A stretch of 64,000 nucleotides of DNA from a virus. Lineage: Duplodnaviria > Caudoviricetes. Below the pieces are notes generated by a model, which was not told the origin of the DNA, did no database searches, and worked only from the letters and a program-made list of their open reading frames with translations. Position numbers and translations under genes: made by a program. Shown piece by piece: positions 1-63,189 of the stretch. The stretch spans positions 205 to 64,204 of the IMG/VR virus record IMGVR_UViG_3300044628_000433; one strand, 5' to 3'. How positions within the stretch are numbered: position 1 is the stretch's first letter; each line of letters starts with the position of its first letter.

Positions 1-115
1 ATCTATGCCCCCATGATTGTTCCACCAGTACGTCACACAATCAACGAGTGTGGTGGTACACATTCACCACATCTCCGCAAGGGTATTGTGTCATCGTCGT
101 ATCTCTTCTTTCAAG
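1..115. repeat. Terminal overlap of circular assembly (identical to 63886-64000)
   Basis: atctatgcccccatg...ttctttcaag occurs at both ends; unit length is 63,885 bp. Confidence 0.97.
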
Positions 116-1701
116 ACGATACGTACAAGACTAAGTATGTGGGATCAGAGCCTTCGTCCAAGTGTGTCGAGGCTGCTAATCGTTTGATGTCTACCGAATG
201 GTGTGTCAACGAACGTGTGTTCGAGGTGATGAAGAATCTATTCGAGAACAACACTAGGGTTGGCAACCTTCCATCATATGAACCTGATCCTAAATTGTTT
301 TCTGATTCTGGAAACGAAGAAAGTATTCGAGTCAATCTATGGAAGGATTGGTTCAGACGATTGAATGACACCGTTCGTATGCACCTTCGATTGAAGATTG
401 CAAACGACATGATTGGACACGGATACTTCTATCATGGTTGGACGTTCGACTTTCGTGGTCGAGCCTATGCCTTGTCTGATTTGTTGTCCCCACAATCAGG
501 GGATCACGACAAGTCATTGCTGTTGTTTGCCAATCCCATGAAGCAAACACCTGACGGATTGTATTGGTTGAAGGTACAGGTTGCGAATCTGTTTGACCAA
601 GACAAGTTACCATTCGCTGATCGTGTGGCATGGGTGGATAAGAATATGGATATGCTACGCTGTATCCATAACGATCCATACAGTACGGTTCGTTTGTGGG
701 CAGACGATAAGCCAAAGAAGAATCAATCCTTCCAACGTCTTGCTGCTGTGTTCGAGTTGTTTCGTACTGATGGTATGACACAACTTCCGATTGGTATGGA
801 TGGTTCATGCAACGGTATCCAACATTGGGCTGCTATTGCAAGAGATCCAGTCATCGGTGCTATGGTTAATCTGTTACCATCAGATAAGCCAGGAGATGCT
901 TACTCAGTTGTTGCCAAGTCTGTGACTGCTAGTGTTGCAGCGTGTGTTGGCAAGGATGATTGGGCAACGATCTTTATGGAGTACTGGAAGGGATCTGTTG
1001 GTCGAGGTGTTGTGAAGCGAGCTGTTATGACAGATCCTTATGGTGTCACTAGGCGTGGCATTGTGGACGGTCTAGTGAATGATGGCAACCTGTTGTTCAT
1101 CGACATCAAGGAACGACACAAGGCTGCTAACTATCTAGCCGACCACATCATCAAGGCTATGGATCATCTGTTGAAGATTCCAAACCAAGGTAAGTTGTGG
1201 CTTAAGGAAGTCACGAAGATTGCTGCTGAAATGAACAAGCACCTTGCTTGGGTAACACCTACTGGGTTCCTTGTTCGTCACCGATACTACCCGATGATAA
1301 ACAGATCGGTTGATATCTATACGTTGGTCAAGCGTCGGCAAGTTTTGTTCGCTGAGTTTGATCGCTATGCTGTTCACCCACGACGTGCAAAGAATGGTAT
1401 CTCACCAAACGTCATCCACTCCTTCGATGCTGCACATATGGTCAACACCATCTGTGAGATGGCAGATGAGGGTATCGAAGACTTCTCGTTTATCCACGAC
1501 TCGTATGGTTGCCATGCTCCACTGGTAAACAAGATGCGTGAGATTACCAAGCGCAAGTTTGTTGAACTCCATAGTGAGAATCTGCTAGCAAATCTTAAGG
1601 AGCAATTAGAAAAGTATCTTGGTGTTGAGTTGCCACCTGTTCCTGAAACGGGTACACTTGACATCAACAAGGTATTAGAAAGTGAGTACTTCTTCCATTG
1701 A
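1..1701 (+). CDS. T7-like single-subunit DNA-directed RNA polymerase, C-terminal part (gene starts at 63190 and wraps; ~798 aa)
   Basis: Motifs DFRGRAY, DGSCNGIQH, R-x3-KRAVMTDPYG, PNVIHSFDAAH, IHDSYG, C-terminal YFFH; in frame with 63190-63885. Confidence 0.97.
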   Translation: MYAPMIVPPVRHTINECGGTHSPHLRKGIVSSSYLFFQDDTYKTKYVGSEPSSKCVEAANRLMSTEWCVNERVFEVMKNLFENNTRVGNLPSYEPDPKLFSDSGNEESIRVNLWKDWFRRLNDTVRMHLRLKIANDMIGHGYFYHGWTFDFRGRAYALSDLLSPQSGDHDKSLLLFANPMKQTPDGLYWLKVQVANLFDQDKLPFADRVAWVDKNMDMLRCIHNDPYSTVRLWADDKPKKNQSFQRLAAVFELFRTDGMTQLPIGMDGSCNGIQHWAAIARDPVIGAMVNLLPSDKPGDAYSVVAKSVTASVAACVGKDDWATIFMEYWKGSVGRGVVKRAVMTDPYGVTRRGIVDGLVNDGNLLFIDIKERHKAANYLADHIIKAMDHLLKIPNQGKLWLKEVTKIAAEMNKHLAWVTPTGFLVRHRYYPMINRSVDIYTLVKRRQVLFAEFDRYAVHPRRAKNGISPNVIHSFDAAHMVNTICEMADEGIEDFSFIHDSYGCHAPLVNKMREITKRKFVELHSENLLANLKEQLEKYLGVELPPVPETGTLDINKVLESEYFFH

Positions 1702-6869: not shown

Positions 6870-6878
6870 GGAGGATAA

Positions 6879-7869: not shown

Positions 7870-8051
7870 AACGCGCAAACATTAATGTAACTCTTCTAAA
7901 GGAACAGATCGAACTAATTGAGAGTGGTCTGCCATACAGTTTGCTTACCGACGAGGAAGCAAGGATTGATGGCCTGTTAGATTTTCTACACGATATTGCA
8001 ACAGGCGAGATCGTGTGCTATAAGAAAGAACTAAATGGAAACCTTGAATGA
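7866..8051 (+). CDS. Hypothetical protein
   Basis: 61-aa ORF coupled by ATGA overlap. Confidence 0.65.
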   Translation: MKRANINVTLLKEQIELIESGLPYSLLTDEEARIDGLLDFLHDIATGEIVCYKKELNGNLE

Positions 8052-13846: not shown

Positions 13847-13871
13847 TCCCTGAGTTAGAGCTAGGAAACAA
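13839..13871 (+). promoter_or_regulatory. Candidate phage RNAP promoter, copy 1
   Basis: ACGAGTAGTCCCTGAGTTAGAGCTAGGAAACAA; 28/33 identical to the copy at 57341. Confidence 0.65.
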
Positions 13872-23887: not shown

Positions 23888-23940
23888 TTAGTGTAGGATA
23901 CTTCTATTACTTTTGTAATGGAACGGTGATCATATATCTA

Positions 23941-23978
23941 GCCAAGAGTCCTCGAAAGGGGACTCTTGGTTTTTTTTT
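23941..23978 (+). terminator. Rho-independent terminator (T-phi equivalent)
   Basis: GCCAAGAGTCCT-CGAAAG-GGGACTCTTGGT followed by a T run, just after the capsid gene. Confidence 0.92.
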
Positions 23979-54100: not shown

Positions 54101-57100
54101 TTGCTTACTTAGATCTTGTTGAAGATAAATATGATGCTGTACGATTGCTCGATGTTAAGGATTATGCAAAGCTTGGTTCAAAGAAAATTCCACACGATCA
54201 GTGGGTATTCAGACCAGATAAGCAACTCTTAAAGAATCGCAATGCTCTTGAGTTTAAGAAGACAGGATCACAAAATCTTCTATCGCAAAAGCGAGCTGTG
54301 CAAATCACAAGAGATATCATTGATGTCGCTAAGTCGGTTGGTGCAGACACGAAGGAACTAGAAGCAAAGCTTGCTGAGCTTGTTGACTCCGCTGAGGTTC
54401 GTAGACGTAATCTACTAGCTGCTGGCTTACATGAAGAAATGGAACCAGAAGATCTAGAGATTATCAATAGTATGATCAAGGGAACGAAGGCGTTTAGTCA
54501 GCCAGCCGTTGATCACCTCACACGAAGAACCAAGCCATCAGCTACCGTGGCTGCGGCTTCTAGAATTAAGTTCTCAGGTAAGAACTACAGAGACTTGACA
54601 GATGACGAAAGACGATCTTTCGTTAGTGACGTATTGCTTCCAACAGTAGAAGAAAAGCTTGGCAATAGAAACCGCAGTGCTGGTATCTATTCATTGATTA
54701 CCGACTCCAAGGTTGGTAAGGGCTTTAACTCTCTCGTTGGTGGTGGTGCCGCTTACGGCGATACTGCCGATGCTCAGTCAATGATGCTACAGTTCTTCTC
54801 AAAGATTTACGATCCTCTTATGGATCTTAGAGATGGTGAGCTATCAGGTACATTCGATCTCTTCTCCGTTGACATGGTTAACGCAGAAACAAATAACATG
54901 TACAGTGCAGCTGGTCTCTTGGATATCCAGAGAAAGATTACAGCTCAGGTCACAAAGACCGCAGAGTTGGAACAGCTATACGAAACAGCTTGGCTATACC
55001 TTGCTGATCTAGAGAGCTTACCAAGTAATGCCGTCCACAGAGAATTGATTGTGGAACTCATTAAGGGTGTCCACAAGTACAATACCTTGGTATCTGGCTT
55101 ACTTGAGAAGTATGGTACGTTGGTTACGCCAATGAAGCCAACAGAGTACGGTACAATCCACAAGGTCAACATGTTAGCCTTCGAGCAACAAGACCAGTTC
55201 GTTGATGCCCTTGTTAAGCATGCCTTGGCAAAGGAACGAGAAAGCAAGGATCTATCCATCATTACGTTGGATGCCTTGGGCTGGGTAAAGCTTACAAGAG
55301 ATTCGGTTTCTGACGATATCGTATCTGTTGAGGTTAAGGAAGGTTCACCTCTTGGTTATGAACCAGCTGTCTACAAGTATTCTGAATTCAAGAATATGGC
55401 TAAGAAAGCCTCACTTGGTAAGGATGCGTTGACTATCTATGAGGATGCCTTAGTGTCTTCTAGAAACTACGTCAACTGGGATATCTATCGGTCACGTGGT
55501 GATAACTATACGGCTCTTAGACATACGATGACCGTAGCTAAGAACCGATACCTCAACATCGACTCTCCAGAATCCCGTGGCGGTAAGCCACGTACTGAAG
55601 GTGTTGGTGGTGGACGTGAAATGGATATTACCAGAATCTTGTCCCACAACGATATCGCAAAGAATCCAGAACTTGCCAAGTACTTTGATAAGGATATCTA
55701 CGGATTGATCTATCAACAGTTACGAAGCAGTGTAACCGATGCCATTATGACCAAGTATATCACAGATATGTTTGGTGTTAAGATGTCATTCTTGGATCTC
55801 GTTGAGGTTTCTAGAAAGCACGGTGAGGCAAGCAGAGGTCAACTCGCTAAGACTGAACAGGATTCAGTAAACCGTGGTTATGACAGAATTAAGGATATCT
55901 GGGAATCAAATACCGGAAAGTTAATGGCAAGTAGAGACGGTCTAGATCGTCACTATAGGTCATTGCTTGAATCTGGCTCTAGACCCCTTGTCCTTTCAGC
56001 AAGTGGTCTCAGAGCGGCTTTAACCTCAACTGGTGAAACCGCAAGAGCTATCCTCGCTAGTAACCATAACCGTGGTATGCTACGTCAAGTAATTCCTAAC
56101 TTCATCCAGACCCTAAAGCTATTTAGTCGGGATAAGAGACAGACCATCCAGCAAGTAGCATCCGCTACTCACTGGCTCCGTGGTCTATCTTCTGACCACC
56201 TATTGTTAAGAGCTGAGATGAACCCAAACAATCCATTCGGTGGAACAATCATGGGTTCTAAGCAGGGTGGCTGGTTTAAGAGTTGGGCTGCATCTTGGGC
56301 AGGAGCTAAGGAACGAAACAAGTTAGAAGACTCTATTGTTGGTAAGGCAGCTAACTATCTGTCTATCCCAGCAAGTAGACTAGGCGCTCCTCTTGCTTTC
56401 GTAAACGATGTAACGACTACATTGCATGTCCAGAATATGCAATACAACCTTACAACAAACTCTTCAAAGTTCATGGCTCTTGCTAAAGCATTGAAGACAT
56501 CTAACCCAGAATCATTGTCTGACTTTGCATCTCTAGCTAAAAAGTGTGGTCTATCCCCCAAGGAAGCTATAGATCTATCTGCTCTGGGTTTATTAGACCC
56601 AGCTAGAATCCAAGTTATGATTGATGCAGCTAAGGACCAACGTAACTATTCCGAAGGTCTATTGGATATCCAACGTCTATTCCTATGGGCTGATGGAGAT
56701 CCCATCAGGATAGATACCATTAACCGTATGGGTGCCTTGGTAAACGCTACTACAAGACACACCAATACTGATCCTACCTTATTGGATCTACGGATTAATC
56801 AATCCCCCTATGCTAGATCTATGGGTGTATTCATGCAGTTCTTGCTTAGTCACTCTACCCAAGAAATAGGTAGACGTAGACGTTATACAACTACTGCATA
56901 CTCTAAGCACCTCGCTGGTCTAGTTATGATGGAATCTATTGCCTATAGCTTGGCTAGACCCAAGGATGACGATGATGATAGCTGGATCTGGGAAGACGCT
57001 AAGGAGAAACCAATCCAAACGGTAATTAAGGTAGGTACCTCTCTCCCTCTCTTGGGAAGCTATCAGTACCTATCTGCTCTTATCCGTATGGGTCTACTAG

Positions 57101-57222
57101 AAACCCACTCTCAGATTACTGGAGAGAAGTCAGATGAACGATATAGAATTCCTGATCTTTACTCTGGTCCTTCAGAGAACGTACCAAAGAAAGCTTTGGA
57201 TATGATCAAGGATCTATTGTAA
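45199..57222 (+). CDS. Giant multidomain internal virion protein (gp16-like polyvalent protein; 4007 aa)
   Basis: Gly/Ala-rich membrane-inserting N-region; two HEXXH motifs; sigma-like, kinase-like and ART-like segments; gp16-like C-terminus (MQF...LPLLG). Confidence 0.85.
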   Translation: MNNDLDRLFEENSKPLPSKSPTVNFTNPTSMYSGQTPDMGEQQIKNEKISLGLLSPSFLNGRWNLTESGLTKEEVGDTALSFTIGEGSKGWGERSIQKAYRMVDQFENKGDAMFTTDNRETHHWEQFVEGINFFNIFGENETFRRADEVKKILSTVDPEWTYEKQLSALTEWQESNPEVNDFVAQAGINIQDYVLETRNQQAFIFNINEAVQQARLNIGMQRFEKDNGTLSKLGNSLIEGIKDPLILRDMALTSVATLGLGTVAGLAGVSARALSGSVAAGVNSSRALRGLNLVRQAANTAALATGPMTGLIEGPAYAAIRAVVPSAGRSAVSTLSARGLALALEGGVAGAVSSLADQKADNEWRSLVFADTEKALKYNLGETALAALTGSLGAVGVASAVRFGLGSIGDYKYYKTGDWDGFRRQIANSMDTWATTKDGDIVWGNTLSDGRGIFFGDTVDKFMKSYDGRDFTNVMLNGSRLFGKFNPRIAGKMNLDVKRVMPVIEEFEKATGVAGEAAMLSVDGVDPETRGIFNQLVNESNLADADLTIDDVKAVLVDYNTKQQPQPPTATGRLLTEAPVATQQVEVARQLKRLVAAKSVDRRLEQIGLSSATVLNNAEATLGRSINLSSDADFQNFITAARYEAASVDESQVVNTFKRIVTGDFGGGRVIPKEVVDSIFVAAFGDKPIVVTATGSNKNFAVVVDPKNKDVFATKRTLEKGDDGQLSIKLRADDPKSPFFSKDVLTVDTDTLQAKLVEVNEKLNKAWNDVKTAKIKETIEKVKKTKVKEELVKTFAEGTSVTVDSIKKIFDLTKEEATVAKIIMDSLGYDGDSNLLRIASLVADDRNAEIFFEGNTALIRATKSSDVGTVTHEMSHYLQVMILDELTPDARHAIGITDEIWEKFKDWVGYTGTEWTEKAAEKFANGMSQYVRRVMSGDGRAPKTQVQRLFHRIGDHLGDLGQRFKSQEALEAGMIMSKEAEDVFEALFNRSNSKIGELFDSAYQGLFKRLPKEQRLAIGKEILGEMAFNDYLAKKEIEFEKAKPVVDKLAEAAATKPVTVTSVVNEIYEKVNNATRKVIKEAIASGMSRESVLTFLKDEEAKIGTVTSIDARPANKLTKPTKLTDEELAKFAAIESPFISVVDDVKVKFIDAAFKTEESKLFFSKEDLQDEIKRRAASKVSKTETDIGISSELKADLEELLGPGTFVDSAGMKVELTPTETVVATKVATVVETAKVDKEHATAVIAALEEGRTLDAVEAKRAPIVTPEVINVEETPVSVETELVALAAISTEASATADSLSIPAAKKAEVKTVVAAAVANPSRAKSLLEKYTTTKLEDVAGVSAKAEATTTRQLPSDLVKQFFEAELRAQISRHTIEGIMGLDDKNFSRFLELEKLAEKFEGPLDALVREPTPENLQATANTINWSMEDLKVYVSGALHKRNGSLIAEFVGAKKFVERNIDTIKETRKYIEDKKSAYDAARAVPEANRSKAQEDLIKKYDKAKGTVSQFNNSIERLKIGVLGNTVLEVVPQKISKAKAYLDKGESIQTKWLQLQSLGATVQDLLFKNMIEADPITILKAIEKNIDRLAELVETDGEEVGFPDWRELPKIELWANGYMKSKAASSFVKKIIRNLELNAKRRLEGTKKKVGSEEVVGASGDAVNVLEGSQKVEGVYTDDEKKDFYVKQQAESEALRNLATLFHAHLVDIGKTELAAVFMARREGILQKASDIDNTARLLENYGIQLTVNSVENRISDLRNELTTFVDGLAEDEAKAIRKLLDLEFKPKKQKTLAQRISTEDMEDLSERLMSAGPLDVIRAPDYLIRAAQESSSDLYRRILSGELENGVQVLEELANNPQSKYKTLAGQILNEHRDYLETVGVWVAKLDDNTEGLYTYDNIFLNVKEGTVNVPALIHEVIHAITTKEIDEAGFTQIEGRGHVAYLEALRNSVQSGVDLNGKKLKASVKSIAASYLATVDWIDRTPEALQLLGSDYKEKFVGRADAVEFPTTTHYALINLHEFIANTLTDSDVLAFFAGAKAASGAAKTRPVKEMLNGISRSIFPRATEEQIKNVDKTLQETIVSNLVTGVVKSKVEPVDQMGMVLMPEPTYVPFRLVGTEIQIPEVVRLGDEAELRSALKSAKGRVYAQLNKITEEEAKGGDWTLDGSILENEYGEEFEAFGFEDGTIGALLAHNELAYKGATKYFETPDKVFIKIKTNEKPYSDSVTQALQLILDGSLYDLFPKMDLQQLSYEKYSNSDFAKLPINEQLKTAQYAYTKITTIQNLLPYKHKVFETQSNNAKTLLEAVTQLKSALDLAFPPEPTISKVGDSKYFKKLTELPTIFDEWTVGITHKDLSTSDGYYFKVKDYQKDNAFILSALLTQKPLEWAEDNGEFMLKYTPTISELSTAQQTLLYFLLGEVPSSDKVPIWEPTVSILYDVHLENYFKEFGVDGIKAVLKSEIALDLIPVDIDSQVLIDIKTNLKKLSNYWYDELDKKGVNVEDDLSAVPTDDVQFLLDNYTVAKLEVDSVFPENATIIGPQLGSNPGHQVEINGSKYYLKAAKSKRHANMERAAQLLYRMLGHESLVSEFTDASNLGSEFKTSILTPWVTTTKFDFDNKDHAAKAKLLYIPSAWLANWDVFGQTYDNVSAEGVILDAGGSLVYRARGGEKDFSNTSVKELDSLRDLSKNFTAANIFMELTPEEIKSQIANLEATASNEQIRDVVFSVFDLSDPSEKADADNLVKTLIARKNIIVASLKELGSIESRMPTELRRFIKMPTTAAEEDIFYIREAAKTFENASLEDKQKALEFMHTVLANADMSGELLRSNFYNAYTEFRLKLLGGTQLNRRELISKFFTNDSGRDIAIRDELGMPITFYRGTNRPDVDAQNGDEVSKGSWWGTDLNVARDYGGGRSIMSAYAAVPPERIKVVKLREMTHWSHVKKSDILDPEVVKYLEDRNFNFGGKVDDIAFAYLDLVEDKYDAVRLLDVKDYAKLGSKKIPHDQWVFRPDKQLLKNRNALEFKKTGSQNLLSQKRAVQITRDIIDVAKSVGADTKELEAKLAELVDSAEVRRRNLLAAGLHEEMEPEDLEIINSMIKGTKAFSQPAVDHLTRRTKPSATVAAASRIKFSGKNYRDLTDDERRSFVSDVLLPTVEEKLGNRNRSAGIYSLITDSKVGKGFNSLVGGGAAYGDTADAQSMMLQFFSKIYDPLMDLRDGELSGTFDLFSVDMVNAETNNMYSAAGLLDIQRKITAQVTKTAELEQLYETAWLYLADLESLPSNAVHRELIVELIKGVHKYNTLVSGLLEKYGTLVTPMKPTEYGTIHKVNMLAFEQQDQFVDALVKHALAKERESKDLSIITLDALGWVKLTRDSVSDDIVSVEVKEGSPLGYEPAVYKYSEFKNMAKKASLGKDALTIYEDALVSSRNYVNWDIYRSRGDNYTALRHTMTVAKNRYLNIDSPESRGGKPRTEGVGGGREMDITRILSHNDIAKNPELAKYFDKDIYGLIYQQLRSSVTDAIMTKYITDMFGVKMSFLDLVEVSRKHGEASRGQLAKTEQDSVNRGYDRIKDIWESNTGKLMASRDGLDRHYRSLLESGSRPLVLSASGLRAALTSTGETARAILASNHNRGMLRQVIPNFIQTLKLFSRDKRQTIQQVASATHWLRGLSSDHLLLRAEMNPNNPFGGTIMGSKQGGWFKSWAASWAGAKERNKLEDSIVGKAANYLSIPASRLGAPLAFVNDVTTTLHVQNMQYNLTTNSSKFMALAKALKTSNPESLSDFASLAKKCGLSPKEAIDLSALGLLDPARIQVMIDAAKDQRNYSEGLLDIQRLFLWADGDPIRIDTINRMGALVNATTRHTNTDPTLLDLRINQSPYARSMGVFMQFLLSHSTQEIGRRRRYTTTAYSKHLAGLVMMESIAYSLARPKDDDDDSWIWEDAKEKPIQTVIKVGTSLPLLGSYQYLSALIRMGLLETHSQITGEKSDERYRIPDLYSGPSENVPKKALDMIKDLL

Positions 57223-57237
57223 TCTAGCTAGAATGCC

Positions 57238-57300
57238 ATTAGAGACGTTCCTGCAGTTAAGACCCCCATCCATAGGGGTAGACTCAGGAACGTCTCTAAT
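57238..57300. repeat. Long inverted repeat after the last gene
   Basis: ATTAGAGACGTTCCTG / CAGGAACGTCTCTAAT, perfect 16 bp. Confidence 0.9.
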
Positions 57301-57340
57301 AGGCTTATAGGAGGTTTATTGGGGTGGGGTATTTACCTAG

Positions 57341-57373
57341 ACGAGCAGTCCCTGATTTGGTGCTAGGGAACAA
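57341..57373 (+). promoter_or_regulatory. Candidate phage RNAP promoter, copy 2 (phi-OR-like position)
   Basis: ACGAGCAGTCCCTGATTTGGTGCTAGGGAACAA. Confidence 0.65.
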
Positions 57374-57459
57374 CCTAGCTGTGATGGAACACAATAAAAC
57401 AAGAGCGGACTCTCCACTAGGGGAGAGTCTAGGAAAGATAGTAAGGGGAGTATCTAGGG

Positions 57460-57570
57460 ATAACGTAAGGAAGTAACGTAGGATTGTCTTAGAATAATAA
57501 CGTTACATAAACCCATAACATAAAACACATAGGGAAGTCCTAAGGATATACCCCATACATAACCATTTCA
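57460..57570. repeat. Short AT-rich iterated repeats (TAACGTA / CATAA)
   Basis: TAACGTA twice, TAACGTT, TAACATA and several CATAA; comparable to short-repeat arrays near T7-like termini. Confidence 0.55.
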
Positions 57571-57656
57571 CTTTGGAGTTGATCGTTTGGGGACAACGCC
57601 CGATAGCTCCAAAGCCGCCTCAGGTACATTCCCCCGTCTGTATCCTGAGTCTATCT

Positions 57657-57692
57657 ATCCCGCTTCCCCTTAACGGGGGAGGTGGGGTTTTC
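57657..57692 (+). terminator. Rho-independent terminator near the genome end
   Basis: ATCCCGCTTCCCCT-TAAC-GGGGGAGGTGGGGT followed by TTTC; G-U pairs favour + strand RNA. Confidence 0.65.
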
Positions 57693-57837
57693 TAAGAAAA
57701 CGTTTTAGGTATCGAAAATTTTAGGAGGGTACCCCCTTCCCCCACCGGGTATTGGCGTCCCCCTCTACCCCCCCGGCCCTGCGGGAAATTTACCCGGCCT
57801 GCGGCTGCTTACCCCCCCTCGGGACAGTCTAGTATCA

Positions 57838-58225
57838 GCGATCTTCCGCAGAGAGTGACCCTTGGGGTGTTACTGCGGAGGGGATCGCAAGGATAGCCGC
57901 GCCTACTTTGTAGGTTTTATGTTACGGGCTACCTTCCCAAACCTTCGGTTTGAAAGTTACTGAAGCCTAACATGTCGTGACGAGCGGCGATAGGGTATGA
58001 TCCTGCGATACGTTCGCAGGGGTGAATCATCCCGCGTCAAGTCTCAAGTGCGATCTCGGAGACGAGTGAGGCTAGGTAACGAATAAGATCGAAGGCAGTC
58101 TACCGCGTAGGGTGTCATCCTACGTTGAAATTCCCGCAACAAAGTCTTTGTTTCAAACATTGACGCGGGAACGTTGGAAACGACGTTCCTGCGATTCGTT
58201 TCAAGGGATGTTCCCTTGAAACTTT
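57838..58225 (+). ncRNA. Large structured RNA / early leader candidate
   Basis: Dense helices, including TCCCGCGTCAA(58030)/TTGACGCGGGA(58160); no credible ORF. Confidence 0.55.
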
Positions 58226-58251
58226 CCGAAACTTTCACGGAGTTATCTACC

Positions 58252-58641
58252 ATGTCTACCTTCAACATGCCGAATGTCGAATCTTTCCGCCGTGTGTTTC
58301 TCCCTACGTTTGTTTCATACCTTCAGGAGAACGGCAAGTTCTCTGTTAGTGGTGACTTGAAGTTGTCGTGTGTGAATTCGTTGGGTGATGTTCCCGTCTT
58401 TGTTTCGGGAACTAAATTGACCTTCCGCAGTGTGGTCGCAGGGAAGAATGGCGTCGAATGTGCGTCGCAAGTCAATTGGCGCGAAGTCGATACTGCGGGA
58501 ACGTTGGCGCAAGTCGCACGGGACTATCTCGTGTCCGAATTGGAGCGTGAAGTTCCCGAATGGTTCAATAACGAGCGCAAGGTCTATAAGTCTGGCCGTG
58601 GTGCTGTTAGTGTGGACGTGCTTGAATCGCTCGGCCTCTAA
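58252..58641 (+). CDS. First early protein (hypothetical)
   Basis: GGAG SD; ATG at 58252. Confidence 0.75.
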   Translation: MSTFNMPNVESFRRVFLPTFVSYLQENGKFSVSGDLKLSCVNSLGDVPVFVSGTKLTFRSVVAGKNGVECASQVNWREVDTAGTLAQVARDYLVSELEREVPEWFNNERKVYKSGRGAVSVDVLESLGL

Positions 58642-58662
58642 TCGCCAGCGTGTGTTCTCTTC

Positions 58663-58697
58663 AGGGTGTCGGGGGTGAAATTATCCCCCGATACTCT
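58663..58697 (+). repeat. Early-region UGAAA-loop hairpin, copy A
   Basis: AGGGTGTCGGGGG-TGAAATTAT-CCCCCGATACTCT. Confidence 0.85.
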
Positions 58698-58736
58698 TTC
58701 CGTCTAAATTGTTCGCCCCTAACGTTGGGAGTCAAT

Positions 58737-58940
58737 ATGTCCAAAGTCAATCCAAAGGTACGGGATGTCATGGCACCGATTGTGCAAGCGCAAGTAAAGG
58801 CGGCGTGTGAACTTCGCACGGAACGTGCCTTGCGTGAAGCATTGGATAGTGTTGTCAAGTGGTCTGGACAATCGCGGACAAAGTGTTTCGCGGCATTGTG
58901 TGTCAAGTATCCGCAATTCAAACAATTAGGGAGTCTCTAA
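58737..58940 (+). CDS. Early hypothetical protein
   Basis: GGGAG SD; MSKVNPK... Confidence 0.7.
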   Translation: MSKVNPKVRDVMAPIVQAQVKAACELRTERALREALDSVVKWSGQSRTKCFAALCVKYPQFKQLGSL

Positions 58941-59260
58941 TGGTCAAGCCAATTCACTACCTTCGAACGTGTGTAGGGAATGTGTCTCGGATTGTTCCTG
59001 CGGAGTATGTCCACAATCGGGAACAATGCGAAACGTGCGGGGATTATATCTCCGTCAAGTGTGTGGTGGCATTGGTTTGGGCCGATGTCGATAGGCCAAT
59101 TGAGTGGGGACGTGTGAATCCCGCAGGTGTCGGGATTAGTTGGGAGGATATTGAGTTGGCCGACTTTGTTCACACAAAGTGTCCTGCTCCCGTGTGGATT
59201 GTTCCACACGGATTCAACGTCGAAGATATCGACGCACACTGGGGCGTAGATTGTGACTAA
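58940..59260 (+). CDS. Early hypothetical protein with CxxC...HxxC (possible Zn binding)
   Basis: GGGAG SD; TAATG overlap; CETCG and HTKC. Confidence 0.7.
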   Translation: MVKPIHYLRTCVGNVSRIVPAEYVHNREQCETCGDYISVKCVVALVWADVDRPIEWGRVNPAGVGISWEDIELADFVHTKCPAPVWIVPHGFNVEDIDAHWGVDCD

Positions 59261-59262
59261 TC

Positions 59263-59297
59263 AGGAATGTTCGGGTGAAAGTATCCCGAACGTTTCT
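59263..59297 (+). repeat. Early-region UGAAA-loop hairpin, copy B
   Basis: AGGAATGTTCGGG-TGAAAGTAT-CCCGAACGTTTCT. Confidence 0.85.
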
Positions 59298-59334
59298 TTC
59301 ATCGTGTGTCTTCTCGCAACTTTGGAGTCAAACA

Positions 59335-59433
59335 ATGTACGTGACTGAATTGTTCTTCTACTGTGCCGTGGCAATGTTTGTGACGGGATGTATCTACGTG
59401 GCTGGCAACATGATCTCTAACCTTGAGGATTGA
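59335..59433 (+). CDS. 32-aa single-TM peptide (not in ORF track)
   Basis: GGAG SD; MYVTELFFYCAVAMFVTGCIYVAGNMISNLED. Confidence 0.6.
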   Translation: MYVTELFFYCAVAMFVTGCIYVAGNMISNLED

Positions 59434-59435
59434 TA

Positions 59436-59762
59436 ATGCGTCAAATTGAACGTGCAATGTGCATCGCAATTCGTTCGAACAAATCTTTCAAGCGTGGAAA
59501 TACGGAAGTGTTGGTGACAAACAACGGTGCGGAGGTGTTCCTGCACGGGAATAGTATCGCACGATATCACCGTCCGTCACACACTATGTTTGTGACGTTG
59601 TGTGGGTGGAATACTAGCACAACAAAGTCACGAATCAATGCCCTGCTTGATTCGTTCGGGACTGGTGTACGAGTGTACACTAAGAAGTTTGAGCCACACT
59701 ATATGGTGTGTGGTCAATCGTTTGAATTTGAGAGCGAAGGACATATCTTCCTCTGTAACTAA
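59436..59762 (+). CDS. Early protein of a widespread phage type (LHGN..IA...GW...TTKSRINAL)
   Basis: GAGG SD; motif pattern. Confidence 0.75.
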   Translation: MRQIERAMCIAIRSNKSFKRGNTEVLVTNNGAEVFLHGNSIARYHRPSHTMFVTLCGWNTSTTKSRINALLDSFGTGVRVYTKKFEPHYMVCGQSFEFESEGHIFLCN

Positions 59763-59766
59763 TCTC

Positions 59767-59798
59767 GGAATGTGTGGGTGAAATACCCCACACCTTCC
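59767..59798 (+). repeat. Early-region UGAAA-loop hairpin, copy C
   Basis: GGAATGTGTGGG-TGAAATAC-CCCACACCTTCC. Confidence 0.85.
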
Positions 59799-59816
59799 TT
59801 TACTCTGTCTGTAGAC

Positions 59817-59896
59817 ACATAGTTAGGTCACAGATTATCAAGGGAAGATAATCTAGTGGCAACTCATACGTCTTCCCAACGTATGTGGTATTATGT
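59817..59896 (+). ncRNA. Three-way-junction RNA with kissing loops
   Basis: P1 ACATAGT/ATTATGT; P2 GTCAC-AGATTATC/GATAATCT-A-GTGGC; P3 CATACGT/ACGTATG; loop sequences GGGAAG and CTTCCC are complementary. Confidence 0.6.
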
Positions 59897-59926
59897 CGGG
59901 GGTTAGATTCCCCTGCGAGATTTCCC

Positions 59927-59958
59927 GAAATGTATGGGTGAAATATCCGATACGTTTC
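59927..59958 (+). repeat. Early-region UGAAA-loop hairpin, copy D
   Basis: GAAATGTATGGG-TGAAATA-TCCGATACGTTTC. Confidence 0.85.
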
Positions 59959-59987
59959 ATCGTGTGTTTCTTTACAAGGAGTAAGAA

Positions 59988-60326
59988 ATGTCCAAGACCG
60001 AACAAGAACTTCGTGAGTGGTGTGAAGGTGTTGAGGCAGATAACGATACTCTTCGTCGTGAGGTTGCACGTCTCAGCAAGGAGCGGGATGAACTCAAGCA
60101 ACTTGTGACGGATTCAATGCGCCTTACGGAACGTTGTGCCTTGAAGTGTGAGGAACTCAACAGGGAGGCAAAGGAACTTCAACGTATGTACTGCCACGCG
60201 GCAGCGTTAATTGGCCGATGTACCCCAAATCAGATTGCGAAGCAACAAGGTTGGGACTGCTTCTACAATGATTTAGTTGACGCAAACGCAAACAACCAAG
60301 ACTTCCGTACTACGGATATGGGCTAA
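59988..60326 (+). CDS. Early coiled-coil protein
   Basis: AAGGAG SD; heptad repeats; C-terminal AKQQGWDCF. Confidence 0.8.
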   Translation: MSKTEQELREWCEGVEADNDTLRREVARLSKERDELKQLVTDSMRLTERCALKCEELNREAKELQRMYCHAAALIGRCTPNQIAKQQGWDCFYNDLVDANANNQDFRTTDMG

Positions 60327-60338
60327 GGAGATAAACCA

Positions 60339-60812
60339 ATGGGCTACTACGTTTCGACAGAACGTTCAGACATCTCAATCTGTGACGAAACTTTGTTCGT
60401 TGAATGTGTCAAGCGTCTGTTCTCTCCTGAGAATATCGCCAAGTATGGTGAGACGTATTCGTGGGGAGATGATGGTAGTGTTGTGAAGTCTCTCAAGTTC
60501 ATTGACCCCGACGATGTGCGTATGGCGTTCATCAGAGATTCTCTCGCCAGAATCTTTGATCTCTTTGGGTATGTCGTTAATGAGTGTGGAGATGGTTCGA
60601 TTCAGATTAGTAAGGACGGCAAGTGGGGAGATGATGAATTGTTCTTCTCAACTATTGCCCCTGCTATTGGTGACGGTAGTTATGTTGATATCGTGGGTGA
60701 GTGTGGCGAACGTTGGCGATACGAATACCATGACGGTGTTTGTTATCTCCGTGAATGCAACGAAGTTCGGTGGATATTCGATCCCGCAATCAAACTGAAA
60801 GGACTGCAATGA
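60339..60812 (+). CDS. Early hypothetical protein (MGY...GExGERW type)
   Basis: AAGGAG SD; KW..DE.FF..IAP.I.DGSY...GE.GERW. Confidence 0.8.
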   Translation: MGYYVSTERSDISICDETLFVECVKRLFSPENIAKYGETYSWGDDGSVVKSLKFIDPDDVRMAFIRDSLARIFDLFGYVVNECGDGSIQISKDGKWGDDELFFSTIAPAIGDGSYVDIVGECGERWRYEYHDGVCYLRECNEVRWIFDPAIKLKGLQ

Positions 60813-61114
60813 ACAAGTACACGATCTACATTCCGTTCTACATTGCCGACGAAACTGGCAACCCCAGTGTGTGTGCCAAACAGATTGGCCTGTCGATTGT
60901 CGAGGAGATTGTCAACGAAACTGGAGGTGCAACTGTCACCGAAGGTAAGGGGTACTGGAGTAACGGGAAGCACATCGTCAATGAAAGTGTGTTCATTGTC
61001 GAAACATGTGCTGAAACTCTCAACACACAACGTATTGCAGCAAGTATCAAGTTGCAACTGAACCAACAAAGTGTTCTCATTCTTCGCCAAGAAGTGGAGT
61101 CTTTCTTCCTATGA
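60809..61114 (+). CDS. SAM-lyase/DUF3574-like early protein
   Basis: GGATVTEGKGYW...E.V...IAASIKLQLNQQSVL pattern. Confidence 0.55.
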   Translation: MNKYTIYIPFYIADETGNPSVCAKQIGLSIVEEIVNETGGATVTEGKGYWSNGKHIVNESVFIVETCAETLNTQRIAASIKLQLNQQSVLILRQEVESFFL

Positions 61115-61284
61115 ATACAACGACATACATTTCGGACAACCTTGTTCAGTCAGCAATGTTCGGGATTCGTAACGAGCAGGAGTATAACTGGTGGCAGTTT
61201 GTCCAGTCTAACTTCTGGTTGAACGATACCGAATCTTCCATTCTCGCAGATCTCATTGAGGAGTACAACAATGAAAGCGTATAA
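61111..61284 (+). CDS. 57-aa early protein (not in ORF track)
   Basis: GGAG SD; ATGA overlap; MNTTTYISDNLVQSAMF... Confidence 0.6.
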   Translation: MNTTTYISDNLVQSAMFGIRNEQEYNWWQFVQSNFWLNDTESSILADLIEEYNNESV

Positions 61285-61555
61285 TATCTACACCAGTAAT
61301 CGTGAATCAATCGCTGTGGATTTGTCTGTGATGTCTGATGATGGTCGAGACTATCAAGGTCTATTGACTGTATATCTTTCACGGTGCTACCGTAAGAGCG
61401 GTATGACGTGGGACGTATCTTTCGTCCGCTATAAGGATGGAACTGAACATCGACATGAACCAACTCTGAAGATTGAATTCTTCGAGCAACTGTGGGTAGC
61501 CGCAATGTTTGAACCCGAACGTCTTCTTCAATACTACACGGAGGTCACTAAGTGA
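61271..61555 (+). CDS. Early hypothetical protein
   Basis: GAGGAG SD; MKAYNIY... Confidence 0.7.
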   Translation: MKAYNIYTSNRESIAVDLSVMSDDGRDYQGLLTVYLSRCYRKSGMTWDVSFVRYKDGTEHRHEPTLKIEFFEQLWVAAMFEPERLLQYYTEVTK

Positions 61556-61797
61556 ATCACTATATCGGTCTGCTCTATGTCGAATCTAGTTTGCAGGATT
61601 TGAAGCATGCTTGTGAGGATCTCGGTATTATCCCACAGAATGTGGAGATTGAAGAGGGTGTGTGTTTCTTCGATGTCCACCTTCTCACTTCGGATAACTA
61701 CGAAGATCCTGAGATGTACTTCGATACCTTGGCACGTGACTTGTCCGAATACATGAACCGCGAAGTTGTCCTCGAAGATATCGAGGAGGAGAACTAA
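61552..61797 (+). CDS. Acidic early protein
   Basis: GGAGG SD; GTG start; Asp/Glu-rich. Confidence 0.7.
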   Translation: MNHYIGLLYVESSLQDLKHACEDLGIIPQNVEIEEGVCFFDVHLLTSDNYEDPEMYFDTLARDLSEYMNREVVLEDIEEEN

Positions 61798-61941
61798 ATG
61801 ACCAACGAGAAGATTGATATTACATTGTTGCTCAAGCGTCTTGAAACTGATTACCCTCTCAACTACAATGTGAATGTGTTGCGAGAAGCGGCACGGGTTA
61901 TTCGAGAACTCCAACTGGAGAAGAAGAATGGACAACAATAA
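61798..61941 (+). CDS. 47-aa early protein (not in ORF track)
   Basis: GAGGAG SD; MTNEKIDITLLLKRLE...LREAARVIRELQ. Confidence 0.6.
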   Translation: MTNEKIDITLLLKRLETDYPLNYNVNVLREAARVIRELQLEKKNGQQ

Positions 61942-62062
61942 CTATGTATCGTTCGATGGTAAGTGGTGGAATGTCTTTGTTGCAGGGGAGTGTGTTGACG
62001 GGTTTCGAGAAGAGGATGATGCTCGTCTCTTTCTTAGCCATGTGTTGAGGTACGGTCAATGA
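61928..62062 (+). CDS. Small early protein
   Basis: GGAG SD; MDNNNYVSFDGKWWNVF... Confidence 0.6.
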   Translation: MDNNNYVSFDGKWWNVFVAGECVDGFREEDDARLFLSHVLRYGQ

Positions 62063-62151
62063 ACGATCCTATTCCGTGGGGACAAATCGTGTTGATCTTT
62101 GTGATTGTTGCTATCGGTATCTACTTCAGCAAGGATGATAACAATGGATAA
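62059..62151 (+). CDS. 30-aa single-TM peptide (not in ORF track)
   Basis: GAGG SD; MNDPIPWGQIVLIFVIVAIGIYFSKDDNNG. Confidence 0.55.
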   Translation: MNDPIPWGQIVLIFVIVAIGIYFSKDDNNG

Positions 62152-62503
62152 AGATGTCAAGAAGCTTTGGATTGATGCACTTCGTTCGGGCAAGTATCAG
62201 CAGGGAAAGTTTGCTCTGAACTGTCAGGGTCGCTTCTGCTGTCTCGGTGTGTTGTGTGATCTGTACGATCAGCAACGATGTGGTGATACAATGTGGTACC
62301 AACACGACAACGGAGTGAAGGGTATTGGTGGAAGTCTTCACCATCTTCCCGTTCCAGTTCGTGAGTGGGCTGATATTGAATCGTATGATCCTCCCGTTAT
62401 TTATGACGGTCGGACTATGGTTATCAGCGATCTGAATGACCATGAGAGACTTTCGTTTGAAGATCTTGCAAACATCATTGAACAACAAGGAGATCATTTC
62501 TAA
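62144..62503 (+). CDS. Early protein of the ALRSG.Y.QG...CCLGVLC type
   Basis: WIDALRSGKYQQG, FCCLGVLC, LND..SFEDLA. Confidence 0.8.
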   Translation: MDKDVKKLWIDALRSGKYQQGKFALNCQGRFCCLGVLCDLYDQQRCGDTMWYQHDNGVKGIGGSLHHLPVPVREWADIESYDPPVIYDGRTMVISDLNDHERLSFEDLANIIEQQGDHF

Positions 62504-62931
62504 TGTCTAAGTATGTTGATTCGTTCTTTACCGTTCTGAAACTCGACTATAATGGTGGCTGGGAATTGGTTGACTCTATCAAGGGTCTTATCAGCGATGA
62601 GGTCAATGATCTCTCCATGAGTGTTGACGATATCAAGAAGGAACTTGAGGACTCTGTTAGTCAGGCTGTGTCTAGTGAGGTTAGTAGCACGATTGATGAC
62701 GCGATTTATGACTTGCGTGGCGACCTTGAGAACACAATGACGCAGATGGTGAATGATTGTGTTGACTCAGTTGTGTGCCAGTCTGATACGCTTGAGCGGG
62801 CTGCGGAAAGTGCGGTCGATGAGTACCTTGACAACAACCTTGACTTCTTTGTGCGACGTTACTTGGAGTCTGAGCGTGGTAAGCAATGGCTCAAGGATGT
62901 TCTCAAGGAAGGAGATGCTAATGTTCAATGA
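62503..62931 (+). CDS. Acidic helical early protein
   Basis: AAGGAG SD; repetitive D/E-rich helices. Confidence 0.75.
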   Translation: MSKYVDSFFTVLKLDYNGGWELVDSIKGLISDEVNDLSMSVDDIKKELEDSVSQAVSSEVSSTIDDAIYDLRGDLENTMTQMVNDCVDSVVCQSDTLERAAESAVDEYLDNNLDFFVRRYLESERGKQWLKDVLKEGDANVQ

Positions 62932-63106
62932 CGAAGAGTTTATGAACGACGATACTGGTCGAGACGAATGGGATGGAGGAGTGTGGGATATGTTTATTGA
63001 CGAATATCATTGCACGGATTACTGGGTAGATACTGATGCACTGATGGACGAAGGTGCATTCGAAGATGACATTGAGGTGGAGGAAGAAGACGGTGATTGT
63101 GGATAA
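62921..63106 (+). CDS. Extremely acidic 61-aa protein (DNA-mimic candidate)
   Basis: AAGGAG SD; 25 of 61 residues are D/E; one Arg, no Lys. Confidence 0.7.
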   Translation: MFNDEEFMNDDTGRDEWDGGVWDMFIDEYHCTDYWVDTDALMDEGAFEDDIEVEEEDGDCG

Positions 63107-63113
63107 CTTGTGA

Positions 63114-63142
63114 ACCACCAGTCCCTGATTCCGTGCTAGGAA
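63114..63142 (+). promoter_or_regulatory. Candidate phage RNAP promoter, copy 3 (upstream of the RNAP gene)
   Basis: ACCACCAGTCCCTGATTCCGTGCTAGGAA. Confidence 0.6.
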
Positions 63143-63189
63143 TCCAATGGTTGGACTCCAATAACTAAACCAAAACAGAAAGAACATAA

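What the first reader, a model, noticed from the sequence alone, without database searches (positions are those of the whole stretch)
58663..59958. Covarying UGAAA-loop hairpin repeat dividing the early region into cassettes
Seen: four intergenic copies (58663, 59263, 59767, 59927), each an 11-13-bp stem ending GGG-UGAAA(U/G)... with a pyrimidine tract after it. Three are followed by a GGAG SD, and B and D share TTTCATCGTGTGT. Stem sequences differ but keep pairing, with G-U pairs, which points to selection on + strand RNA. Weaker GGGT..ATCC echoes occur at ~57992, 58019 and 58110. Established: T7 early mRNA is cut at RNase III hairpins; UGAAA plus bulged bases is a T-loop signature, and a ~12-bp T-loop-capped helix resembles the tRNA acceptor-T arm. 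Inference: processing or stabilising signals (RNase III, or RNase P/Z by tRNA mimicry), protein-binding sites, or recombination joints for shuffling anti-defence cassettes.
Basis: partly seen in the sequence, partly recalled or inferred. Interest (0 to 1): 0.75.

Follow-up and report, generated by a model that had tools for sequence, protein, structure and literature searches.

The report
Conserved-loop hairpins between phage early genes
Four related RNA hairpins with an almost unchanging loop sit in the gaps between the first small genes of an uncultured lake-water T7-like phage; they most likely mark boundaries in the early messenger RNA and are also places where related strains gain and lose small genes.

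Summary
A covariance model built from the copies finds exactly four in the 64-kb circular phage genome (53-60 bits; next best 13.7). All four are on the + strand, within 1.3 kb, in the gaps after early genes e1, e3 and e5 and before e6. Stems of 12-13 bp covary: 8 of 13 pairs change on both sides and about 91% of cells pair. G-U pairs make three of the four fold much better on the sense strand. GGGUGAAA is invariant in the window.

The family is confined to this phage lineage. Strain comparison shows:
- compensatory changes in the stems;
- one chimeric hairpin where the window has C + 126 nt + D;
- clean loss of the core of B or D in some strains;
- gene insertions next to D.

The three "echoes" upstream are not family members.

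Best reading (0.5): individually dispensable sense-strand mRNA boundary elements for processing or 3' protection, read through the conserved loop. As repeats they also serve as recombination joints. This works like T7 RNase III sites and T4-type PeSLs, but the elements fail defining features of both (too short; no promoter). Leaky terminators remain a serious rival. The T-loop/tRNA-minihelix idea fits partly and is untested. No RNA-end data exist. The scan has noted similar intergenic early-gene hairpins on other phage DNA.

The parts
58663..58697 (+). Hairpin A. 13-bp stem, loop UGAAAUUAU. Starts 21 nt after the stop of e1 and ends 39 nt before the ATG of e2.
   Evidence: Fold dG -23.6, z -5.4. 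R1 59.2 bits. In L001/L002, G-C becomes A-U and G-U becomes G-C, keeping the helix.
59263..59297 (+). Hairpin B. 13-bp stem, loop UGAAAGUAU. Starts 2 nt after the stop of e3 and ends 37 nt before the ATG of e4.
   Evidence: Fold dG -18.4. R1 60.5 bits. Its core is deleted in L109 and reduced to CGGTGAAATATCCCG in L110.
59767..59798 (+). Hairpin C. 12 stem positions with a U.C mismatch, loop UGAAAUAC. Starts 4 nt after the stop of e5.
   Evidence: Fold dG -17.5. R1 53.4 bits. The mismatch position varies among strains: G.A in L110, G-C plus a neighbouring G.A in L109, and U.G in one low-depth X17 contig.
59799..59926 (+). Non-coding spacer between C and D, strongly structured. A 7-bp closing stem holds two hairpins, followed by a T-arm-like hairpin GGGGG-UUAGAUU-CCCCU. 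Candidate small RNA. Absent from L001/L002.
   Evidence: Fold z -5.7. 96% column identity with L109 and L110, whose e5 proteins are 87% and 71% identical to the window's. Consensus fold. Not called by ARAGORN or Rfam.
59927..59958 (+). Hairpin D. 12 stem positions with a G.G mismatch, loop UGAAAUAU. Ends 29 nt before the ATG of e6.
   Evidence: Fold dG -13.9. R1 55.9 bits. A 25-nt core is deleted in L110. Its 3' arm is fused to the 5' arm of C in L001/L002.
59297..59309 (+). TTTCATCGTGTGT tail after B. The same 13-mer follows D at 59955-59967.
   Evidence: Read directly. Direct repeats D7/D10.
58252..60326 (+). The six small early genes that the hairpins separate: e1 58252-58641, e2 58737-58940, e3 58940-59260, e4 59335-59433, e5 59436-59762, e6 59988-60326.
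   Evidence: ORFs. Only e5 has a family (PF23790 Kyano_Gp96, phrog_554). The T7-type RNA polymerase gene starts at 63190.
58165..58222 (+). Two other leader hairpins upstream of e1: a 12-13-bp stem with a GAAA tetraloop, then UUUCAAGGGA-UGU-UCCCUUGAAA. They are not family members but share the CGTTTCA-type tail. In L110 the second one precedes a different gene.
   Evidence: Fold. Terminator-like scan hit 58164-58193. L110 positions 1205-1230.

Best explanation
The four hairpins are paralogous copies of a roughly 45-nt intercistronic element. They lie in the operon of small genes upstream of the RNA polymerase gene of a 64-kb T7-like podophage from lake water. By analogy with T7, that operon is presumed to be transcribed by the host polymerase. 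The element acts in the sense-strand mRNA. It is a 12-13-bp helix carrying a nearly invariant 8-9-nt loop, GGG-UGAAA(K)(U)AY-CCC, placed 2-21 nt after a stop codon and 29-39 nt before the next start.

I read it as mRNA punctuation. A host or phage factor recognises the loop and helix. The transcript is then cut at or beside the hairpin, or the hairpin blocks 3' exonucleases. Either way the early message is divided into segments with their own stabilities, and the structured 126-nt spacer between C and D could be released as a small RNA.

Each copy is dispensable. Because the copies are repeats, they also serve as crossover points where small genes and the spacer are gained or lost.

Shown: the family, the sense-strand structure, the loop constraint, dispensability and the recombination joints.

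Inferred: transcription by the host polymerase, any cleavage or protection, and the identity of the factor.
For: Genome context.
- The genome is T7-like and all on one strand: RNA polymerase PF00940, T7-type primase-helicase, family A DNA polymerase, nozzle protein and terminase.
- The hairpins fill every gap longer than 20 nt among the first six early genes.

Structure under selection on the + strand.
- 90.8% of 130 cells pair and 8 of 13 pairs change on both sides; slid controls give 41-56%.
- A G-C to A-U swap occurs between strains about 90% identical.
- The reverse strand folds much worse for 3 of 4 copies.

The loop is more constrained than the stem.
- GGG, T, AAA, TA and CC columns are invariant in 7 copies, while stem columns vary.
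- L110 keeps CGGTGAAATATCCCG although both arms of B are gone.

The hairpins differ from this phage's evident terminators. Those have tetraloops and uninterrupted U runs: 23940-23971 is followed by T8, and the hairpin at about 57660-57693 by TTTT.

Dispensability fits a modulatory RNA signal. The core of B is deleted in L109, and the cores of B and D in L110. From memory, not from a call: T7 grows without RNase III processing.

Recombination.
- L001, L002 and L111 have one hairpin made of the 5' arm of C and the 3' arm of D, where the window, L109 and L110 have C-spacer-D.
- Different genes follow the D leader in L109 (gene y) and in L110 and run X17 (gene x).
Against: - There is no RNA-end evidence. 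The two metatranscriptome runs laid have contigs only on 57300-57614, none on the early genes, and contigs cannot show ends anyway.
- No factor is identified. 17 of 18 early proteins have no Pfam match reaching its curated cut-off, and none looks like a nuclease or RNA-binding protein.
- For host RNase III the helix is short. Passages of PMC1540722 say E. coli substrates typically have two helical turns, that 11 bp from loop to cut is the minimum, and that the loop sequence does not matter. No conserved lower stem appears in larger folds.
- The tails are pyrimidine- and U-rich, so attenuation of transcription is not excluded. The simple scan calls C terminator-like.
- The family exists in one lineage only, so the comparative power is small: 10 distinct copies, all related by descent.
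Confidence: 0.5

Rival explanations
1. Leaky intrinsic terminators or attenuators. The upper, G+C-rich 7-10 bp of each hairpin plus the U/C-rich tail stops part of the transcription coming from upstream. This grades expression along the early operon, as the stem-loops of T4-type PeSLs do.
For: - The tails are U-rich: B has UUUCUUUCAU after CCCGAACG, and A has UCUUUCC.
- The scan lists C as terminator-like.
- The A/G-rich 5' base pairs with the U-rich tail. From memory, this is seen in many terminators.
- PeSL stem-loops were shown to terminate (passages of PMC2839356).
- Being dispensable fits an attenuator.
Against: - No copy has a run of four or more U.
- The loops are 8-9 nt and sequence-conserved, which termination does not require.
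- The G+C-rich part is at the top of the stem, not next to the tail.
- This phage's clear terminators have tetraloops and U4-U8.
- Only 1 of the 4 copies passes the scan.
- Four terminators would sit in series upstream of the polymerase gene. This is a weak argument: two promoter-like hits lie downstream at 61256 and 61841, but at chance frequency.
Confidence: 0.25
2. tRNA acceptor/T-arm minihelix mimics. The 12-bp helix capped by a T-loop-like UGAAA loop is taken for half a tRNA and cut by RNase P (5' side) and/or RNase Z. The early message would then be punctuated by pseudo-tRNA signals.
For: - From the invariant G-C at the base to the invariant G-C under the loop there are exactly 12 stem positions. 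That equals 7 acceptor plus 5 T-stem pairs (tRNA geometry recalled).
- The loop starts UGAAA, followed by UU in A. The consensus for T-loop terminal loops in FMN/cobalamin riboswitches is (YGNRA)NY, best (UGHAA)UU (passages).
- The top of C, GUGGG/CCCAC, equals the T-stem of the phage's own tRNA-Leu (repeat D19).
- The spacer ends in a regular T-arm-like hairpin with a 7-nt loop UUAGAUU, whose base pair is G-U, A-U or G-C in three strains.
Against: - The loops are 8-9 nt, not 7. C and D can be redrawn with 7-nt loops only by adding a bulge.
- No 3' CCA follows any copy.
- ARAGORN and the Rfam tRNA model find nothing at the hairpins or in the spacer.
- A five-letter consensus is easily met by chance.
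- There is no cleavage evidence.
Confidence: 0.1
3. PeSL-like composite element. The hairpin terminates upstream transcription, and the conserved loop is conserved at DNA level because it holds a -10-like promoter box for the next cassette (TGAAATTAT, or TAAAAT in L001).
For: - In PeSLs the stem-loop lies between the -35 and -10 boxes or over the -10 box, and PeSLs mediate the same kind of cassette indel, with a crossover in the loop (passages of PMC2839356).
- TG-A-AATTAT in A resembles an extended -10 box (by eye).
- L110 keeps the loop motif without the stem, 17 nt before a start codon.
Against: - The sigma-70-type scan finds no + strand promoter at any of the 4 copies.
- There is no -35 box.
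- The one-base-shorter loops of C and D lose the final T of the hexamer.
- TGAAAT has G where the key -11 A should be (consensus recalled).
- The host, and so its promoter type, is unknown.
Confidence: 0.1
4. A repeat with no function of its own: a palindromic sequence spread by duplication and recombination and kept only as a by-product.
For: Single copies can be lost. The family is lineage-specific. Flanks are mosaic among copies: B shares ACTAATC with C and the 13-mer tail with D.
Against: - Compensatory changes keep the helix while stem sequences diverge at 8 of 13 pairs.
- The loop is nearly invariant.
- All copies sit in one orientation, precisely in intergenic gaps.
Confidence: 0.07

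Closest known systems
RNase III processing sites of the phage T7 early region (R0.3, R0.5, R1, R1.1, R1.3; names and biology recalled, not from a call)
   Same: - Sense-strand hairpins in the gaps between small genes upstream of, and including, the RNA polymerase gene of a T7-type phage.
- Paralogous copies.
- Individually non-essential.
- The hairpin lies next to the upstream stop codon, so it would end up on the 3' end of the upstream message.
   Different: - 12-13 bp instead of about two turns with an internal loop, and no conserved lower stem.
- A conserved 8-9-nt loop. E. coli RNase III has no loop requirement (PMC1540722 passages).
- Cleavage is not shown and the host is unknown.
PeSLs (promoter-early stem-loops) of T4-type phages (Arbiol et al. 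2010, PMC2839356; Comeau et al. 2014, PMC4122927)
   Same: - Repeated intergenic stem-loops with G runs and C runs between small non-essential early genes.
- A cassette flanked by two copies in one phage is replaced by a single chimeric copy in a close relative.
- The crossover can lie in the loop (passages; here).
   Different: - No sigma-70-type promoter nested with the stem-loop.
- A podophage with its own RNA polymerase.
- Only 3-4 copies, confined to 1.3 kb.
- Terminator activity is untested.
T-loop-capped hairpins (tRNA T-arm; FMN/cobalamin riboswitch T-loops)
   Same: The loop starts with UGAAA, followed by UU in A, which is the dominant T-loop sequence reported for FMN riboswitches. 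The closing pair is G-C. The helix length equals acceptor plus T-stem.
   Different: 8-9-nt loops instead of 7. No partner loop or receptor is identified. There is no CCA tail. The setting is an mRNA spacer, not a folded non-coding RNA.

Membership tests
T7-type RNase III processing site | Sense-strand hairpin in an intercistronic gap of the early operon of a T7-like phage | tested here: met
   all four lie on the + strand between small ORFs upstream of the PF00940 RNA polymerase gene.
T7-type RNase III processing site | About two helical turns of (quasi-)continuous helix, usually an upper and a lower stem around an internal loop | tested here: not met
   12-13 bp only. Folds of 116-136 nt around the copies show no shared lower stem. 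PMC1540722 passages: two turns are typical; the minimum is 11 bp from loop to cut in a 34-nt substrate, so the size is borderline.
T7-type RNase III processing site | Cleavage by host RNase III | not testable with these tools
   Host unknown. The RNA runs laid are contigs and do not cover the early genes.
PeSL (promoter-early stem-loop) | Stable stem-loop repeated between small non-essential early genes | tested here: met
   Copies are lost in L109 and L110.
PeSL (promoter-early stem-loop) | Host sigma-70-type early promoter (-35, -10, AT-rich upstream) nested with the stem-loop | tested here: not met
   the three + strand promoter-like hits in 57000-64000 are at 57120, 61256 and 61841, none at a hairpin. 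Caveat: an E. coli-type consensus was used and the host is unknown.
PeSL (promoter-early stem-loop) | Recombination between copies makes cassette indels, leaving a chimeric element | tested here: met
   L001/L002 have the 5' arm of C joined to the 3' arm of D and lack 59797-59922.
Intrinsic (Rho-independent) terminator | G+C-rich stem with a short loop, followed at once by a U run | tested here: inconclusive
   1 of 4 copies (C) passes the scan. The longest U run is 3. The phage's clear terminators have U4-U8.
T-loop / tRNA acceptor-T-arm minihelix | Loop begins with the T-loop pentamer (YGNRA or UUCRA) | tested here: met
   UGAAA in 9 of 10 distinct copies and UAAAA in one. Consensus taken.
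T-loop / tRNA acceptor-T-arm minihelix | Seven-nucleotide terminal loop (pentamer plus two bulged bases) closed by a Watson-Crick pair | tested here: not met
   The loops are 9 nt (A, B) or 8 nt (C, D) in the minimum-energy folds. A 7-nt reading of C and D needs an extra bulge (by eye).
T-loop / tRNA acceptor-T-arm minihelix | 12-bp helix with a G-C pair at its base, then discriminator and CCA; recognised by tRNA models | tested here: inconclusive
   12 stem positions and an invariant basal G-C are met. There is no CCA. No ARAGORN or Rfam tRNA hit.

The most novel reading that the evidence does not exclude
The hairpins are loop-specified processing signals of a kind not described for phage mRNAs: tRNA half-molecule mimics. 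Each is a 12-bp helix with a G-C base pair and a UGAAA T-loop-type cap. The host's tRNA-processing machinery (RNase P/Z), or a dedicated hairpin-specific factor, would cut at them. The early message would then be punctuated as mitochondrial transcripts are by tRNAs, and the conserved 126-nt structured spacer between C and D would be released as a small RNA.
Probability: 0.12. Interest if true: 0.75.

Novelty: new variant of a known kind. Interest (0 to 1): 0.42.

Why it matters
Early regions of phages are where host take-over and anti-defence genes turn over fastest. This case shows, in an uncultured freshwater relative of T7, a small RNA element that both organises the early message and marks the points where strains exchange small genes. 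The same double role is proposed for T7 RNase III sites and T4 PeSLs, but here the architecture differs: a short helix with a strictly conserved loop. If the loop is read by a specific factor, or mimics a tRNA arm, that would be a new way of punctuating a phage message. It would also give a simple sequence signature for finding cassette boundaries in metagenomic phage genomes. If the hairpins are only weak terminators, the finding is ordinary.

Tried and rejected
- RNA evidence. 24 runs were listed and 2 are RNA. I laid both RNA runs and 2 DNA runs. The RNA contigs cover only 57300-57614, so nothing can be said about transcript ends at the hairpins.
- Wider family, IMG/VR pattern scans. ATGTNNGGGTRAAAN{1,2}AYCC gave 94 stretches, of which the 80 returned as loci (L015-L094) were searched with R1 together with L001-L014 (94 sources in all). 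GGGTGAAATTATCCC gave 62 stretches, of which 60 new loci were searched with R1. Outside the phage's own lineage the best scores were 18.8 and 24.9 bits, against 45 or more for members. These are chance matches.
- Distant relatives. 0 of 11 loci whose RNA polymerase is 42-44% identical (L004-L014) have a copy. The early genes of L014 are tightly packed, and one search lists no inverted repeat within its gene block at about 5700-8600.
- Cultured phages: blastn of 57200-61200 against the phage collection gave no match.
- Injected-polymerase hairpin promoters, as in N4 (features recalled). The 4007-aa virion ORF has no Pfam hit, only one weak PHROG match of unknown function (phrog_15770, E 0.0086) and one chance-level PDB match (5xog_M, E 0.8), and no polymerase signal. 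Rejected for lack of support.
- Promoter for the phage's own polymerase. A different conserved 22-mer occurs three times, at 13844, 57346 and 63119, and is unlike the hairpins.
- Lambda-type nut/boxB site (consensus recalled). Only A has a boxA-like UUCUCUUCA upstream, and the loop size differs. Rejected.
- tRNA or known RNA family at the hairpins or in the spacer: none.
- Spacer elsewhere: a 23-nt core gave 0 hits in IMG/VR.
- Literature search for the loop motif as a string returned only unrelated papers. A six-term search for T7-like early RNase III hairpins returned 0 papers.
- The Python box was lost. A planned breakpoint statistic and a hairpin census of the pattern hits were replaced by covariance-model searches.
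- Supplements of the PeSL papers, which hold the terminator assays, could not be seen.
Full report
**What the window is.** The window is all but 204 bases of a 64,204-base contig whose ends overlap by about 319 bases, so it is a circular or terminally redundant assembly. All large genes are on the + strand. They are those of a T7-type podophage:
- a single-subunit RNA polymerase (PF00940), whose gene starts at 63190 and wraps to 1..1701;
- a T7-type primase-helicase and a family A DNA polymerase;
- a class II ribonucleotide reductase;
- a head-tail adaptor (connector) protein, major capsid protein, nozzle protein and large terminase.

The nearest named phages share only about 34% identity in the polymerase, and blastn of 57200-61200 finds nothing among cultured phages. 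The region occurs in 24 listed runs, 22 of them labelled lake-water and 2 freshwater metagenomes. A 4007-aa ORF ends at 57222. Then come about 1 kb of non-coding DNA and, from 58252, a string of small + strand ORFs up to the polymerase gene. By analogy with T7 this is the early operon read by the host polymerase. That is inference.

**The observation.**
- A (58663-58697) and B (59263-59297) have 13 perfect pairs.
- C (59767-59798) and D (59927-59958) have 11 pairs and one mismatch each.
- Energies are -23.6, -18.4, -17.5 and -13.9 kcal/mol, and 0, 1, 0 and 3 of 200 shuffles fold as well.
- GGGTGAAA occurs four times in the window, only here. The count alone is not unusual (15 of 100 shuffles reach it), but the context is.

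A covariance model built from the four copies plus three from a relative was run without filters over both strands of the window. It gives four hits of 53-60 bits, and then nothing above 13.7 bits.

The copies fill every gap longer than 20 nt among the first six early genes. They start 21, 2 and 4 nt after the stops of e1, e3 and e5. They end 39, 37 and 29 nt before the starts of e2, e4 and e6. GGAG-type ribosome sites follow A, B and D. The remaining 3 kb of early genes are tightly packed and carry no copy.

**Structure and strand.**
- On seven copies, 93.4% of 91 cells pair and 7 of 13 pairs change on both sides. On ten distinct copies the figures are 90.8% of 130 cells and 8 of 13 pairs.
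- With the 3' partner slid by 1-3 columns only 41-57% pair, and 0 of 500 shuffles reach the observed pairing.
- These counts lean towards the structure, because it was derived from the same, related, sequences.
- Independent support comes from strains about 90% identical. In hairpin A of L001/L002 a G-C pair has become A-U, a G-U has become G-C and a U-A has become U-G.
- G-U pairs are common, and the reverse strand folds at -15.4, -11.0 and -6.8 for A, B and D. The fold is therefore selected on the sense strand.
- The loop and its closing GGG/CCC are far more constant than the stem (invariant columns). Something reads the loop sequence.

**Distribution.** The family is confined to this phage's lineage.
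- Two pattern scans of IMG/VR (94 and 62 stretches) and model searches of 94 and 60 loci found members only in contigs nearly identical to the window.
- The 82%-complete relative G001 has exactly three copies, all within its first 1.4 kb.
- None of 11 loci with 42-44% identical polymerases has a copy.
- A metagenome scan with protein e5 added two more strains, L109 and L110.

**Strain comparison.**
- L001/L002/L111: e1-A-e2-e3-B-e4-e5, then one chimeric hairpin (5' arm of C, 3' arm of D, loop UAAAA), then e6. The 126-nt spacer is missing.
- L109: A is identical to the window. B has lost its upper 23 nt (ATCAGGAAC|GTTTCTTTC). C, the spacer and D are present. After the D leader and the first three codons a different gene (y) follows.
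- L110: a different first gene, and no A or e2. B is reduced to CGGTGAAATATCCCG, overlapping the stop codon of e3. C and the spacer are present. D has lost a 25-nt core. An extra gene (x) precedes e6.
- One low-depth contig of run X17 has C-spacer-D followed by gene x. It turns the U.C mismatch of C into U.G. It is a single contig at depth 3.4, so treat this with caution.

Single copies are therefore dispensable, and most rearrangements abut a copy. One crossover lies inside the hairpin itself.

**Mechanism.** I favour (0.5) a sense-strand mRNA punctuation element, a processing and/or 3'-protecting hairpin read through its loop. As a repeat it also serves as a recombination joint.
- Against a plain terminator: no run of four U, a long conserved loop, G+C at the top of the stem rather than next to the tail, and the contrast with the phage's obvious terminators. 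The hairpin after the capsid gene (23940-23971) has a GAAA loop and T8, and the one at about 57660-57693 has TTTT.
- But the tails are U/C-rich, the scan flags C, and PeSL stem-loops do terminate. Attenuation therefore stays at 0.25.
- Against classical RNase III sites: the helix is 12-13 bp without a shared lower stem. E. coli substrates typically span two turns, need at least 11 bp from loop to cut, and do not depend on loop sequence (passages of PMC1540722). The size is just above the minimum, so RNase III is not excluded.
- A nested promoter, as in PeSLs, finds no support from the sigma-70-type scan. The loops of C and D spoil the -10-like reading.

**The T-loop idea.** For T-loop terminal loops of FMN and cobalamin riboswitches the reported consensus is (YGNRA)NY. 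The functionally best form is (UGHAA)UU, and UGAAA is dominant (passages of bioRxiv 10.1101/2022.12.26.521914). Hairpin A reads UGAAAUU-AU. The helix has 12 positions between an invariant basal G-C and an invariant G-C under the loop, which is the length of acceptor plus T-stem. Yet the loops are 8-9 nt rather than 7, no CCA follows, and tRNA models are silent. I keep this as the boldest reading (0.1-0.12).

**The spacer.** The 126 nt between C and D fold far better than shuffles (z -5.7). They are 96% identical in L109 and L110 although the neighbouring e5 proteins are only 87% and 71% identical. The consensus fold is a 7-bp stem holding two hairpins, followed by a T-arm-like hairpin whose base pair is G-U, A-U or G-C in the three strains. 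By eye, the two inner 7-nt loops (AAGGGAA and CUUCCCA) are complementary. It may be a small RNA released or bounded by C and D.

**Comparison with known systems.** The element works like T7's early RNase III sites (recalled) and like T4-type PeSLs (abstracts and passages of PMC2839356 and PMC4122927). It fails a defining feature of each: helix length and internal loop for the first, the nested promoter for the second. It is a new variant of a known kind.

Earlier notes of this scan describe comparable hairpins between early genes of other phages. None is on this genome or shares its sequence.

**What is missing.** There is no RNA-end evidence, and the host and the reading factor are unknown. 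Of 18 early proteins only e5 has a Pfam match reaching its curated cut-off (PF23790, unknown function).

Noticed in passing
window 59799-59926: The 126-nt non-coding spacer between hairpins C and D is highly structured (z -5.7). It is 96% identical in strains whose flanking e5 protein is only 71-87% identical. It ends in a T-arm-like hairpin (GGGGG-UUAGAUU-CCCCU), and the two inner 7-nt loops (AAGGGAA, CUUCCCA) are mutually complementary. No tRNA or Rfam call. It is absent from L001/L002. Candidate small RNA.
   Followed up: partly
window 57300-57614: Contigs from two lake metatranscriptome runs (X23, X24) cover only this non-coding stretch of the 4 kb laid. It lies downstream of the 4007-aa gene and upstream of a canonical terminator at about 57660-57693. 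It could be an abundant stable RNA or carried-over DNA; contigs cannot tell.
   Followed up: no
window 13844-13865, 57346-57367, 63119-63140: A conserved 22-mer, CAGTCCCTGA-T----GCTAGG, occurs three times on the + strand (0 of 100 shuffles give 3). One copy lies about 50 nt before the RNA polymerase gene. It is likely the phage polymerase's own promoter.
   Followed up: partly
window 45199-57222: A 4007-aa ORF sits at the position of T7's internal virion proteins. It has no Pfam hit, one weak PHROG match of unknown function (phrog_15770, E 0.0086) and one chance-level PDB match (E 0.8). By eye, the translation contains two HExxH motifs.
   Followed up: partly
window 57845-57883 and L109 2268-2305: Another hairpin with a conserved inner part (GUGACCCUUGGGGUGUUA). 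Its outer stem differs compensatorily between strains: CUUCCGCAG/CUGCGGAGG against CUUCGGA/UCCGAAG. Read by eye.
   Followed up: no
window 58165-58222; L110 600-720 and 1164-1230: Other leader hairpins (one with 12-13 bp and a GAAA tetraloop, then UUUCAAGGGA-UGU-UCCCUUGAAA) carry CGTTTCA-type tails like B and D. In L110 the second type precedes the e3 homologue instead of e1, so a second kind of mobile leader element may exist.
   Followed up: partly
window 4865-4901: A 37-nt stretch 78% identical to the anticodon-to-T-arm part of the adjacent tRNA-Leu (4915-4987), with T-arm GTGGGTTCGACTCCCAC. ARAGORN and Rfam do not call it. It may be a degenerate third tRNA.
   Followed up: no
L110 1128-1165: A (CAAC)n microsatellite of about nine units directly after the first early gene of this strain.
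   Followed up: no
window 30791-36373: The 1860-aa tail-fibre-like ORF starts with a Major tropism determinant N-terminal domain (PF18454) and has internal 750-nt repeats.
   Followed up: no
L009 2065-2108 and L014 4527-4570: Distant relatives (RNA polymerase 42-43% identical) share a single 20-bp, two-turn hairpin in their leader region.
   Followed up: no
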